A program made the translations under genes and the position numbers. Of a stretch of 64,000 bases of DNA, positions 11,076 to 20,153 are shown one piece after another. Source of the DNA: the human T2T-CHM13v2.0 reference genome, Homo sapiens; NCBI RefSeq assembly GCF_009914755.1, contig NC_060932.1. One strand, given 5' to 3'. A model generated the notes under the pieces. The model saw nothing but the letters and a program-made list of their open reading frames with translations. It ran no database searches and was not told the DNA's origin. Positions within the stretch are counted from its first letter, which is position 1. Each line of letters opens with the position of its first letter.

Positions 11076-12277
11076 AACTCACTTTAAGCACTTGTTTTAT
11101 CTGAAGTGTTTTTGTATAAATCATTAATTTTGAACACTATCAGTTTAGAAATTGATAATTCAGAACATGAACAAAATTTAAGAGGAAATATTTCAGATTT
11201 TAAAAGAATAAACTTTTCAAGCAGTCTCAATTTTTAAAATACATCATCAAGAATGTGATAGGTTGATCTGCAGTAATTTCTGTCTTCTCATTACTTTAGG
11301 TGGTTTAAGAATCCTCACCCTCTTTAATTTTTATTTTAGACACATTTAGAAATAGGAAAACTTTACTGCCTATTAGAATCTGGTACATTCATCTTTTTCT
11401 TGTTGAAATACTTTATAAAACCCTTCATATAATCAGCCCCTTGCCTGACATAAATATATATATATATTTTTTAGTTTCCGTTTTTTGCCATTCATGCATT
11501 TTTTAAGTTATATGTATTCAAATCATCCATTTTTCTTTTGCTTTATTGCACCGGAATGAATATATAAATATTCTCCTATATTAACCCCTAGTTCTTTCCT
11601 ATTTCCATTTTTTGTTTTAGTTTTTTTAACATTTAAGACCTTAATCTATCTGGAAATTACTTTGGTGTTTCTGTGGTGAAGATCTAAGTTAATCCTCCCA
11701 ACACCCCCTAAAGGCAGGCAGTTATCTCAGCACCATTTTTACTTTGTTTTTCCCTCACTGATTAGAAATGCTATCTTCATAATATGCTAGTTTCCTTTGT
11801 ATATTATATACCATTTGTGGGCATTTAATTCTGCTTCATTATTCTATCTCATACTGGCGTTACATACTTTTCTAAGCATTTAACAAAAAGATGTAATTTG
11901 TTTATTAAACATAAAATTTGATTTTTCTATTAAATCAATCACTATATAATTCAGATGATGTTTATTTTTTGCCTATATGGTTACTCAGTGACTGAAAACG
12001 GAATATCAAAATATCCCAATTTATTTATTTAGAGCAACCTCTTATGTCTTTAATTTGTAACATACAATGCTATATTAATATATCAAGTTTATAACTATAT
12101 CTTCCTTTATATTATGTTCTTTATCAATATTAAGTGACTCCATCCTCATTTACTGATTTCTGCTGTCAATTTTGCTTTTTTGATCATGTTATTCATACTA
12201 TCTTTTTATATTTTATTAAAATTTCATTGCCTGTTTTTAACTTTTTTTTTTAAATAAAAACAGACAATTGAAACATT

Positions 12278-12283
12278 TTTATT
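12278..12283 (-). terminator. AATAAA polyadenylation signal of the retrocopied transcript
   Basis: tttatt on + strand, about 26 nt before the poly(A) remnant. Confidence 0.8.
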
Positions 12284-12394
12284 AGGTTAATTTCACTTTT
12301 TACATTACTACAACAATAACAAAAATACCAATACCATTGAATACAATTAAGAAGTTTACTTAAATCATATTCCTCAAAATTTGGTGTGTATCAT

Positions 12395-12565
12395 CACATG
12401 TGTTAGAATCATGGGAGCGAGGGCAGAGGGTTACTTCTAAATATTCAAATTCTCGGCCTCCCCTAGACAAACTGAATCAGAATTTCTAAGAATGTTGCCA
12501 TAGAATCTGCATTTTAGCATTTCTTTCCAAGTGATTTTTATGCAAACCAAAATTAAAAATACTGC
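12395..12565. mobile_element. MER5-like hAT fossil within the retrocopy's cellular exon
   Basis: Motifs ttagaatca, actgaatcagaatttct and aatctgcatttta. Confidence 0.55.
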
Positions 12566-12960
12566 ATTGACATTTTCCATCCCAGTCTTCTGAAGATTGA
12601 AAGTTAACAGCAGGGTTGGGGTGGGCTGGGGTGGGACAAGGTCATGGGAAATAGCAGCCCAGGAAGCATCAGCACTGTCATCCTCACTGTGGTTTGGATG
12701 AAGTACCTTTTCAATAAGCTCTTCTGTATCTCTTGATAAACAGTTACATGGTAATGAAACTTTTCAAGGTTATTTCCTTGAGAATACAGCTAAGGCAGCT
12801 TCTTGCGTCTTTCCAAGCAGAATATTCTGATATTATTATTAATCTTTATCTTGTCTTGTTCTGAAAACAATTTGAGCTATCTTATGAAATTCATAGTCTA
12901 TATTAGTTTAAGAAGTAGATGAGAAAACAAGCTCAGGAAAATAAACCTATGGGTAAGAGA

Positions 12961-13028
12961 GAGAGTGTATGTGTGTGTGTGTGTGTGTGTGTGTGTGTAA
13001 GAGAGACAGAGAGAAGAAAGAGAGAGAA
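12961..13028. repeat. (GT)n/(GA)n microsatellite inside the retrocopy
   Basis: About 14 GT units followed by GA-rich repeat. Confidence 0.95.
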
Positions 13029-19200: not shown

Positions 19201-19246
19201 GAGCTGTAGACCGGAGCTGTTCCTATTCGGCCATCTTGGCTCCTCC
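13205..19246 (-). mobile_element. Full-length LINE-1, L1PA3-like, ORF1 and ORF2 disrupted
   Basis: 5'UTR of ~904 nt from ggaggagccaagatggcc; ORF1 stop at codon 205 plus frameshift; ORF2 in several pieces, RT motif FADD changed to SADD; 3'UTR gcattaggaga; 9-bp TSD gaaaatctt at 13196-13204 and 19247-19255. Confidence 0.95.
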
Positions 19247-19444
19247 GAAAATCTTCTCTTGAGAAAAGTGAATGGACAAATAAAGATTTCTCATTTCCGA
19301 CAAAAGAAAATAACCAGCATTGATTTGCTATTTCTGTTGTTATGAGTGCTTCCAGGTGGTTGTCTTTGGATCTGCTCTGTTCCTGTGCACCTCTTCTTGG
19401 AATATAAATTTCTGAGCCTCAATGTGCCCTGATGCCGTTCCTTT

Positions 19445-19599
19445 CTTCCACCGTAAGAGTTACCGAAAGCTCGGCGTCCGTGATGGGGTAGAGGGCTTCC
19501 GAGGCGATCGGGCAGTGTCAGTCTTCAGCCGCTAAGCCGAGAAGATCTGGGAAGGAGTCAGAGAGCCTTGGGCCAGAGTTCCAGGGGCTCTGGGAGTGG
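19445..19599 (-). mobile_element. HERV-H internal exon (gag end/pro start), 155 nt, both flanking introns removed
   Basis: Minus strand CCACTCCCAGAGCCCCTGGAAC...GGTAACTCTTACGGTGGAAG; begins and ends at the HERV-H acceptor and donor positions as I recall them. Confidence 0.85.
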
Positions 19600-19781
19600 C
19601 GGATTTGAAATTGGTGAGATGTATCTTGGGCTGGTCGGTCTGAGGACCTGAGGTCCTAGGTGGATCTTTCTCAAGGAGCAAAAAGCAGGAGGACGGGGGA
19701 TTGATCTCCCAAGGGAGGCCCCCCGATCCAAGTCACAGCACCAAATTTCATGCACGTCCGTGTGAAGAGACCACTAAACAG
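19600..19781 (-). mobile_element. HERV-H exon 1: last 36 nt of LTR7, PBS and leader up to the major splice donor
   Basis: CTGTTTAGTGGTCTCTTCACACGGACGTGCATGAAA, then PBS TGGTGCTGTGACTTGGAT (19726-19743, tRNA-His type), ending ...AATTTCAAATCCG. Confidence 0.92.
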
Positions 19782-20153
19782 CTGTTTTTAACTTTTAACC
19801 CAAATTCTTTTAAGTATGCCTCATGTAGAAACATGAGTTGGATTTTATGTAAGTTTGTAAGTTTATCTCATGTAGAAAGCATGGAGTTGCATTTATCTTA
19901 TGAACTAAGTGAACCATTTAGTACTTAACTAAATATTATTTAAAAAAATTAACCACTTATGTTAGTATATAATTATATGCTAATGCCATTTTATCACAAT
20001 TGTTTTACATTATGTAAAACATACATGTTTTATCATAATATTCTATCATAAATGTTTTACATTTGCCATCTTGTTTTTTCTGCATTCTTTTTTACGTTGC
20101 TTTGCAGTTTTAATTTTACCACCTGCTAATCTTAAAATGCCTTTAAAAATATA

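What the first reader, a model, noticed from the sequence alone, without database searches (positions are those of the whole stretch)
12231..19796. Retrocopy of a doubly spliced HERV-H/LTR7-cellular chimeric RNA in a STK3 intron
Seen, on the minus strand: 36 nt of LTR7 3' end, tRNA-His PBS, leader ending ...TTTCAAATCCG joined directly to CCACTCCCAGAG (19600/19599), a 155-nt HERV-H gag/pro segment ending GTGGAAG joined directly to non-viral AAAGGAACGGC (19445/19444), ~1.1 kb of non-viral sequence (excluding the L1) with a MER5 relic and microsatellite, AATAAA and a poly(A) remnant. It is bounded by a perfect 15-bp TSD ending at a TTTT/AA site (19793-19798). Known: these junctions match the HERV-H leader donor, pre-pro acceptor and pro donor used by LTR7-driven chimeric RNAs in pluripotent cells (recalled, not aligned). 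Inference: an LTR7-driven RNA from another locus was reverse-transcribed by L1 ORF2p and inherited, leaving a fossil of an embryonic or germline transcript. A repeat annotator would probably show only disconnected fragments. Ten CpGs remain in 19451-19540, consistent with a young insertion.
Basis: partly seen in the sequence, partly recalled or inferred. Interest (0 to 1): 0.92.

Follow-up and report, generated by a model that had tools for sequence, protein, structure and literature searches.

The report
L1 copy carrying spliced HERV-H exons
A 7.5-kb insertion in an STK3 intron is a copy of one long chromosome-18 RNA that ran from a HERV-H retrovirus through three cellular exons and a complete L1 jumping gene, a rare but already described way for L1 to spread.

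Summary
On the minus strand a perfect 15-bp target-site duplication at a TT/AAAA site brackets 36 nt of LTR7 U5, the HERV-H leader, a 155-nt gag/pro exon, non-viral sequence, AATAAA and a short A-tail. Both HERV-H junctions sit exactly on GT/AG boundaries in 29 of 29 and 11 of 11 other HERV-H copies.

The predicted parent exists on chr18 (about 27.43-27.48 Mb in this assembly) as three GT-AG-bounded exons.

The interpretation needs one large correction. The 6-kb full-length L1 is not a later insertion. The same L1, with the same short duplication and the same interrupted A-tail, sits in the chr18 terminal exon, and chr8 aligns to it colinearly over 7,094 columns at 96.4%.

So the element is an L1 retrotransposition with a 535-nt spliced 5' transduction and a 951-nt 3' transduction. 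Every ORF lesion is private to one copy, and the chr18 L1 still has a 1,275-codon ORF2. The source was therefore probably coding-competent.

No HERV-H interior lies within 90 kb upstream on chr18, only three solo LTR7-type LTRs.

Direct precedent exists (PMC6425141, PMC13174262), so this is a new member of a known kind. Divergence of about 3% argues against a young insertion.

The parts
19782..19796 (-). 5' copy of the 15-bp target-site duplication (AAAAGTTAAAAACAG), preceded by TT (TT/AAAA endonuclease site)
   Evidence: Read directly; identical to 12231-12245.
19746..19781 (-). Last 36 nt of an LTR7-type LTR (about the U5 part). The whole promoter and R region are missing.
   Evidence: Contiguous with the leader in 94-96% matches to HERV-H loci. 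Matches 34/36 and 33/36 to the ends of two chr18 solo LTRs. In those LTRs AATAAA lies about 23 nt before this start.
19600..19745 (-). HERV-H primer-binding site and leader, ending at the leader splice donor
   Evidence: Matches to HERV-H loci end at 19600. GT follows this point in 29 of 29 loci. The tRNA-His assignment of the PBS is recalled, not tested.
19445..19599 (-). 155-nt HERV-H internal exon at the gag-pro junction
   Evidence: 93-96% matches about 1.8-2.0 kb downstream of the leader in the same proviruses. AG before and GT after in 11 of 11 loci. Lies between zf-CCHC and RVP in a chr9 provirus.
19364..19444 (-). chr18 exon E3 (81 nt; chr18 27428977-27429057)
   Evidence: 78/81 identical. 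The parent has a pyrimidine tract plus AG before the exon and GTAAAT after it.
19315..19363 (-). chr18 exon E4 (49 nt; chr18 27429666-27429714)
   Evidence: 47/49 identical. The parent has AG before the exon and GTGAGC after it.
19247..19314 (-). First 68 nt of the chr18 terminal exon (from chr18 27473539, after CCTAG), ending in the source L1's own 5' duplication AAGATTTTC
   Evidence: 68/68 identical to chr18.
13203..19246 (-). Full-length L1 (6,044 nt) carried inside the RNA. ORF1 has a 1-nt deletion. ORF2 has three stops and a 4-nt deletion.
   Evidence: Colinear with the chr18 L1 (27473607-27479653) at 96.7% (200 mismatches in 6,041 aligned sites), with the same interrupted A-tail and the same flanking duplication. 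Pfam on the chr18 copy gives Exo_endo_phos, RVT_1 and Transposase_22.
12252..13202 (-). 951-nt 3' transduction: chr18 sequence downstream of the source L1, with a (CA)n run and AATAAA at 12283-12278
   Evidence: Only two genomic copies exist, chr8 and chr18 27479656-27480624. 21 mismatches in 953 aligned sites. The parent sequence stops matching 26 nt after AATAAA.
12246..12251 (-). A-tail remnant (6 A outside the duplication; 10 A in all)
   Evidence: Read directly. chr18 has TAATAAG at this point.
12231..12245 (-). 3' copy of the 15-bp target-site duplication
   Evidence: Read directly.

Best explanation
Window 12231-19796 (minus strand, the sense strand of STK3) is a single L1 retrotransposition event. 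Its template was a roughly 7.5-kb spliced, polyadenylated RNA from chr18, about 27.43-27.48 Mb in this assembly.

That RNA ran from a HERV-H element (U5, leader, gag/pro exon) through two small cellular exons into a 7.1-kb terminal exon. The terminal exon contains a full-length sense-oriented L1. Transcription read past the L1's own poly(A) signal and ended at an AATAAA 0.95 kb downstream.

L1 endonuclease and reverse transcriptase inserted the RNA at a TT/AAAA site in an STK3 intron. The result is an L1 with a 535-nt spliced 5' transduction and a 951-nt 3' transduction.

Shown:
- the insertion hallmarks
- removal of four GT-AG introns
- colinearity with chr18 through the L1
- that every ORF lesion is private to one copy.

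Inferred:
- Transcription began at the LTR7 promoter of a provirus just upstream of the chr18 exons.
- That provirus has since collapsed to one of the solo LTRs now 2.2 or 3.9 kb upstream of E3.
- The L1 proteins came from this same RNA (cis preference).
- The event happened in the germ line or early embryo roughly 10-17 million years ago. This age comes from the measured divergence and recalled primate substitution rates.
For: 1. Insertion hallmarks: perfect 15-bp TSD, TT/AAAA site, A-tail 26 nt after AATAAA.

2. Four exon junctions coincide with GT/AG.
- Leader donor: 29 of 29 HERV-H loci.
- Acceptor and donor of the HERV-H internal exon: 11 of 11 each.
- chr18 acceptors and donors of E3, E4 and E5: read.

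3. The non-viral parts have exactly one other genomic copy, on chr18, split by introns of 0.6 and 44 kb.

4. chr8 19315..12246 aligns to chr18 27473538-27480624 as one 7,094-column alignment at 96.45% (221 mismatches, 8 gaps). The alignment runs straight through the L1. Both copies keep the L1's flanking AAGATTTTC and its odd interrupted A-tail.

5. Lesions are private.
- chr18 ORF1 has one stop and a 1-nt deletion where chr8 is open.
- chr8 ORF1 has a different 1-nt deletion.
- chr8 ORF2 has 3 stops and a 4-nt deletion.
- chr18 ORF2 is an ATG-to-stop frame of 1,275 codons with Exo_endo_phos (6e-20) and RVT_1 (5e-46).

6. Three solo LTR7-type LTRs, each with an intact 5-bp duplication, lie 2.2-4.3 kb upstream of E3. 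Two of them are in the right orientation.

7. Precedent:
- PMC6425141 (passages read) describes a 539-nt spliced 5' transduction started in the LTR7Y of a HERV-H provirus.
- PMC13174262 (section 13 and Table S5 read) describes 17 L1 insertions with spliced 5' exons.
Against: - No HERV-H leader or interior was found in chr18 27339001-27429000, the 90 kb upstream of E3. Four motifs carrying the copy's private variants have no chr18 match. The source provirus is therefore inferred, not seen. In the published precedent the provirus lay 126 kb upstream, which is farther than I could look.
- Only 36 nt of the LTR survive and no R region. Initiation at the LTR7 promoter is therefore not shown by the sequence.
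- Three of the first 9 bases of E3 differ from chr18. This is denser than elsewhere.
- Cis versus trans supply of the L1 proteins cannot be settled from sequence.
- No other primate genome could be examined, so the age and the empty site are untested.
- The A-tail is short.
Confidence: 0.88

Rival explanations
1. A processed copy of an LTR7-driven lncRNA of about 1.5 kb was inserted first, and an unrelated full-length L1 later landed inside it.
For: The L1 has its own short flanking duplication. On its own that looks like a nested insertion.
Against: The same L1, at the same base, with the same duplication and A-tail, is in the chr18 parent. The alignment runs through it without a break at the same identity as the flanks. 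Two independent insertions at the same base are not credible.
Confidence: 0.01
2. Same RNA, but mobilised in trans by proteins of another L1, as for ordinary processed pseudogenes. The embedded L1 would be a passive passenger.
For: Processed pseudogenes form this way. ORF1 lies about 1.4 kb from the 5' end of the chimeric RNA, behind extra upstream sequence, which could hinder its translation (inference).
Against: No lesion is shared by the two copies, so the embedded L1 was most simply intact when copied. The established cis preference of L1 proteins for their own RNA favours self-mobilisation (established knowledge, stated in the abstract of PMC6789731 seen). Law et al. note that L1s with 5' exons are nearly all close to full length, which fits coding-competent templates.
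Confidence: 0.2
3. The HERV-H part came from a provirus elsewhere in the genome and was joined to the chr18 RNA by trans-splicing or RNA ligation, not by cis-splicing.
For: No provirus within 90 kb upstream. Law et al. consider trans-splicing for L1 chimeras that lack a source in cis.
Against: The junction uses the normal HERV-H donor and a good chr18 acceptor. Solo LTRs in the right orientation sit 2-4 kb upstream and are the expected remains of a provirus. Cis-splicing from HERV-H into downstream exons is the common pattern (PMC12228294 section 16).
Confidence: 0.1
4. DNA-level segmental duplication from chr18 to chr8.
For: Long colinear match of 7.1 kb.
Against: Two chr18 introns totalling about 44 kb, and the HERV-H introns, are precisely absent. 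The match ends at a poly(A) site, and a TSD at a TT/AAAA site bounds the element.
Confidence: 0.01

Closest known systems
Ref_Chr1_p31.1a, an L1-Ta with a 539-nt 5' transduction started in the LTR7Y of a HERV-H provirus (Salvador-Palomeque et al. 2019, PMC6425141; passages read)
   Same: - Full-length L1 carrying both 5' and 3' transductions.
- The 5' part holds LTR and internal HERV-H sequence spliced to exons next to the source L1.
- The source L1 is identifiable.
- The 5' part is almost the same length (539 vs 535 nt).
   Different: - Different loci: chr11 to chr1 there, chr18 to chr8 here.
- That family is human-specific and still active. This event is old (3.1% parent-copy divergence).
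- There the provirus survives 126 kb upstream and the copy starts with an untemplated G at the LTR start site. Here only solo LTRs were found, and the copy starts 36 nt before the LTR end.
- Here four introns were removed, and the L1 sits inside a terminal exon rather than being spliced next to.
The 17 hg38 L1 insertions with 5' transduced mRNA or lncRNA exons (Law et al. 2026, PMC13174262; section 13 and part 1 of 3 of Table S5 read, all four supplement tables word-searched)
   Same: Exons of another gene in sense orientation directly 5' of a near-full-length L1 within one TSD pair, with an endonuclease site, an A-tail and junctions at splice sites.
   Different: - This locus is not listed. 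Table S5 has no chr8 or chr18 entry. No number beginning 9857, 9858 or 9859 (my estimate of the hg38 position) occurs in any of the four tables.
- In most of their cases no source L1 could be found in the parent gene, and exons are spliced onto or near L1 position 1. Here the source L1 survives, and the last junction lies 68 nt upstream of the L1 in ordinary exon sequence.
- None of the six entries I read in Table S5 (part 1 of 3) involves HERV-H, and a word search of all four tables finds no HERVH or LTR7.
L1 3' transduction
   Same: Read-through of the L1 poly(A) signal to a downstream AATAAA, so that unique flank is carried to the new site.
   Different: Combined here with a long spliced 5' transduction. 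PMC6425141 puts 5' transductions at under 0.1% of L1-Ta insertions.
HERV-W-type processed pseudogenes (L1-mobilised proviral RNAs; review PMC5537654, seen in a search listing only)
   Same: Retroviral RNA sequence inserted by L1 machinery with a TSD and an A-tail.
   Different: Those are copies of the proviral RNA itself. Here only 337 nt are retroviral, they are spliced, and they serve as the 5' end of a cellular/L1 RNA.

Membership tests
L1-mediated (target-primed) insertion | Target-site duplication bounding the whole unit | tested here: met
   Perfect 15-mer at 19796-19782 and 12245-12231.
L1-mediated (target-primed) insertion | Endonuclease consensus TT/AAAA at the insertion site and a 3' A-tail after a poly(A) signal | tested here: met
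   TT precedes the AAAA start of the duplication. AATAAA at 12283-12278 and 6-10 A from 12251. chr18 has no A run there.
L1 5' transduction from a spliced upstream transcript | Non-L1 sequence 5' of a near-full-length L1 inside the same TSD pair, mapping in sense to exons upstream of a source L1 | tested here: met
   535 nt lie 5' of the L1. 198 nt of these map to chr18 exons E3, E4 and E5, which lie upstream of the chr18 L1.
L1 5' transduction from a spliced upstream transcript | Junctions coincide with splice donors and acceptors | tested here: met
   HERV-H sites 29/29, 11/11 and 11/11. chr18 AG and GT flanks read.
L1 5' transduction from a spliced upstream transcript | Source and offspring L1 are the same element by descent | tested here: met
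   One alignment of 7,094 columns at 96.45% through the L1 and both flanks. Shared flanking duplication and interrupted A-tail.
L1 3' transduction | Unique sequence downstream of the source L1 carried to the new site, ending at a downstream poly(A) site | tested here: met
   951 nt with only two genomic copies, ending 26 nt after AATAAA.
LTR7/HERV-H-driven chimeric transcript | Transcript starts at the LTR7 transcription start site | tested here: inconclusive
   Only the last 36 nt of the LTR are kept. R is absent and there is no untemplated G. This could be 5' truncation or another start.
LTR7/HERV-H-driven chimeric transcript | Use of HERV-H splice donors into downstream host exons | tested here: met
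   The leader donor and the donor of the gag/pro exon are used. The latter is joined to chr18 E3.
LTR7/HERV-H-driven chimeric transcript | A HERV-H provirus upstream of the host exons at the parent locus | tested here: not met
   In this assembly there is no leader or interior in the 90 kb upstream, only three solo LTRs. Farther upstream could not be fetched.
   The L1 is present at the same base in chr18.

The most novel reading that the evidence does not exclude
The chr8 copy is the only surviving record of the interior of a chr18 HERV-H provirus that has since recombined down to a solo LTR. Together with the chr11-to-chr1 case in print, it would show that capture of a HERV-H LTR7 promoter by a downstream coding-competent L1 is a recurrent route, across more than 10 million years, by which L1 reached the heritable genome when HERV-H is active in the early embryo.
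Probability: 0.4. Interest if true: 0.6.

Novelty: new member of a known kind. Interest (0 to 1): 0.45.

Why it matters
5' transductions are rare (put at under 0.1% of L1-Ta insertions in PMC6425141). In most catalogued spliced cases the source L1 cannot be found (PMC13174262). Here both ends of the story survive:

- the source L1 in its exon, still with a complete ORF2 frame
- the offspring, with four introns removed and both transductions.

That makes this a clean, fully resolved example of an L1 riding an outside promoter. It is a second, much older case in which the outside transcript begins in HERV-H. That supports the published speculation that HERV-H activity in the early embryo can drive heritable L1 mobilisation.

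It also illustrates two practical points:

- A retrocopy can preserve exons of a provirus that later vanished from its own locus.
- Repeat annotation splits such units into unrelated-looking pieces.

It has no evident bearing on STK3 function.

Tried and rejected
- **Later L1 insertion:** rejected.
- **Segmental duplication:** rejected because the introns are removed.
- **Template-switch chimera:** rejected as the main reading because the HERV-H/chr18 junction is an exact donor-acceptor pair.
- **Other genomic copies of the leader|gag-pro spliced junction:** a 20-mer search with up to 2 mismatches gave 8 places. Only chr8 is exact, and the other 7 show no HERV-H homology by BLAST. No sibling spliced copies were found.
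- **Siblings of the chr18 source:** the E3-E5 probe and the 3' flank probe hit only chr8 and chr18, plus one weak 100-nt repeat match on chr7.
- **Listing HERV-H leaders to reach chr18:** the pattern had 189 matches, but only the first 100 (contigs 1-8) are listed, so this was uninformative.
- **Hunt for the parental provirus:**
  - BLAST of a chr15 provirus probe and of the copy's own HERV-H part against chr18 27339001-27439000 found only LTR pieces (positive control in 59).
  - Four private-variant motifs gave no chr18 hit.
  - The top-40 lists hold no chr18 hit near 27 Mb.
  - Farther upstream could not be fetched.
- **Naming the parent lncRNA:** the literature search for HERVH + CHST9 + lncRNA found 0 papers. 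The parent transcript remains unnamed.
- **L1 subfamily name:** not determined, because no repeat library was available.
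Full report
**1. What is in the sequence**

Read on the minus strand, the stretch 19796-12231 is bounded by two perfect copies of a 15-mer. These lie at 19796-19782 and 12245-12231. 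The upstream flank ends in TT and the duplication starts AAAA, which is the classical L1 endonuclease site.

Inside the duplication, in order:
- 36 nt of an LTR7-type LTR end (19781-19746)
- primer-binding site and leader (19745-19600)
- a 155-nt HERV-H piece (19599-19445)
- non-viral sequence (19444-19247)
- a full-length L1 (19246-13203)
- more non-viral sequence (13202-12252), with AATAAA at 12283-12278
- six A residues outside the duplication.

All junction coordinates in the finding are correct, as is the count of 10 CpGs in 19451-19540.

**2. The HERV-H junctions are splice sites**

Searching the window's own assembly, the leader part matches many HERV-H copies at 93-96%, and every match stops at 19600. 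The 155-nt part matches about 1.8-2.0 kb farther down the same proviruses (for example chr9, chr14, chr15 and chr8).

In all 29 fetched leader loci the next bases are GT (28 GTAAG, 1 GTGAG). In all 11 fetched internal loci the piece is preceded by AG (10 CAG, 1 GAG) and followed by GT. One search had shown only the plus-strand subset, 19 and 9.

In a chr9 provirus the piece lies between a gag zinc knuckle and the protease domain.

The spliced leader|gag-pro 20-mer is unique in the genome. Of 8 places within 2 mismatches, only chr8 is exact, and the other 7 have no HERV-H homology.

**3. The parent locus**

The non-viral 189 nt next to the HERV-H part match chr18 in three blocks. The 950 nt at the 3' end match chr18 once. 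Neither has any other real copy.

Read against chr18:

| Exon | chr18 coordinates | Length | Boundaries in chr18 |
|---|---|---|---|
| E3 | 27428977-27429057 | 81 nt | pyrimidine tract plus AG before, GTAAAT after |
| E4 | 27429666-27429714 | 49 nt | AG before, GTGAGC after |
| E5 (terminal exon) | starts at 27473539 | 7.1 kb | follows CCTAG |

Four introns in all have been removed, not two.

**4. The correction: the L1 is part of the copied RNA**

At chr18 the terminal exon runs 68 nt and then meets the same full-length L1. It sits at the same base, is flanked by the same (A)AGATTTTC duplication, and ends in the same interrupted A-tail.

Window 19315..12246 aligns to chr18 27473538-27480624 as one alignment of 7,094 columns at 96.45% identity, with 221 mismatches and 8 gaps.

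Divergence is similar in the L1 (200 of 6,041) and in the 3' flank (21 of 953).

The element is therefore an L1 copied together with 535 nt of spliced upstream RNA (5' transduction) and 951 nt of downstream flank (3' transduction). The RNA ended at the AATAAA of the chr18 locus. chr18 continues TAATAAG where chr8 has its A-tail.

**5. State of the L1 when it was copied**

On the pairwise alignment every reading-frame lesion is private to one copy:

| Copy | ORF1 | ORF2 |
|---|---|---|
| chr18 | one stop and a 1-nt deletion | open |
| chr8 | a different 1-nt deletion | three stops and a 4-nt deletion |

The chr18 copy keeps an ATG-to-stop frame of 1,275 codons with endonuclease and reverse-transcriptase domains. 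Its ORF1 fragment matches the L1 ORF1 families.

The simplest reading is that the source was coding-competent. Given the established cis preference of L1 proteins, it most likely mobilised its own chimeric RNA. This step is inferred. Trans mobilisation cannot be excluded.

**6. Where is the provirus?**

I probed chr18 27339001-27439000 with a chr15 provirus and with the copy's own HERV-H part. This found no leader or interior, only LTR pieces (with a positive control in 59).

Reading the region shows three solo LTR7-type LTRs, each with an intact 5-bp duplication:

| chr18 coordinates | Strand | Duplication |
|---|---|---|
| 27424647-27425107 | + | ATATT |
| about 27425750-27426117 | - | GAAAT |
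| 27426313-27426761 | + | CCACC |

The two plus-strand LTRs lie 3.9 and 2.2 kb upstream of E3. Their last 36 nt match the copy at 34/36 and 33/36. The differences are CpG decay or a private change in the copy, so they do not discriminate between the two.

Four motifs that carry private variants of the copy have no chr18 match.

I favour a provirus that later recombined to a solo LTR, at about even odds. A provirus more than 90 kb upstream remains possible, because it was 126 kb in the published precedent. So does trans-splicing. More chr18 sequence could not be fetched.

**7. Start of the RNA**

In the chr18 LTRs an AATAAA lies about 23 nt before the point where the copy begins. The copy therefore holds roughly U5 only. 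The R region and promoter are missing. Initiation at the LTR7 promoter is thus an inference, and the copy is most simply 5' truncated.

**8. Age**

Parent and copy differ at about 3.1% of sites overall. The figure is 2.3% (160 of 6,852) outside CpG sites and 29% (61 of 209) at CpG sites.

Using recalled primate substitution rates and recalled human-orangutan divergence of about 3%, this suggests roughly 10-17 million years. This is not 'young', and it was not checked against other primates.

**9. What is known**

- PMC6425141 (passages read) describes an L1 on chr1p31.1 with 5' and 3' transductions. Its 539-nt 5' part starts in the LTR7Y of a HERV-H provirus 126 kb upstream of the progenitor L1 on chr11 and is spliced. 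[quoted passage not shown]
- PMC13174262 (section 13 read; Table S5 part 1 of 3 read; all four tables word-searched) catalogues 17 hg38 L1 insertions with spliced 5' exons, mostly without an identifiable source L1. Its Table S5 holds no chr8 or chr18 entry. No number beginning 9857, 9858 or 9859 occurs in any of the four tables. Those prefixes are my offset-based estimate of the hg38 position, which is an inference. Its PDF supplements could not be read.
- PMC12228294 section 16 (passages read) states that a subset of HERVH has working donor and acceptor sites that build chimeric transcripts.
- I found no paper naming this locus.

**10. Verdict**

It misses the main point, which is that the L1 is the cargo and probably the engine.

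This is a well-resolved new member of a known, rare kind, of moderate interest.

Noticed in passing
L053 2588-6415 (chr18 27475588-27479415): The old source L1 on chr18 still has an ATG-to-stop ORF2 of exactly 1,275 codons with endonuclease and RT domains. Its ORF1 is broken by one stop and a 1-nt deletion. Its chr8 copy of the same age has three stops and a frameshift in ORF2.
   Followed up: partly
L039 5647-7761 (chr18 27424647-27426761): Three solo LTR7-type LTRs lie within 2.2 kb, two on the plus strand and one on the minus. Each has its own intact 5-bp duplication (ATATT, GAAAT, CCACC). The first has a tandemly repeated central block. This is an unusual local cluster of independent HERV-H integrations.
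   Followed up: partly
window 18837-20036: The RefSeq 'enhancer' feature in the hub's table covers the first roughly 410 nt of the L1 5' UTR, the whole 535-nt HERV-H/chr18 5' transduction and about 240 nt of flank. What assay defined it is not known to me.
   Followed up: no
window 12231-19796: The 7.5-kb unit lies in the same orientation as STK3 (minus strand), between the coding exons at 25160-25297 and 8788-8913. It brings a sense-strand AATAAA and a full-length sense L1 into the intron.
   Followed up: no
window ~12960-13010 versus chr18: The largest length difference between parent and copy is an 18-nt gap in the chr8 copy in the 3' flank, about 235 columns past the end of the L1. I take it to lie in the (CA)n run but did not map it.
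   Followed up: no
G000:C12:8307654-8307673: One HERV-H copy on chr12 shares the otherwise private T in the leader motif of the chr8 copy. Not examined further.
   Followed up: no
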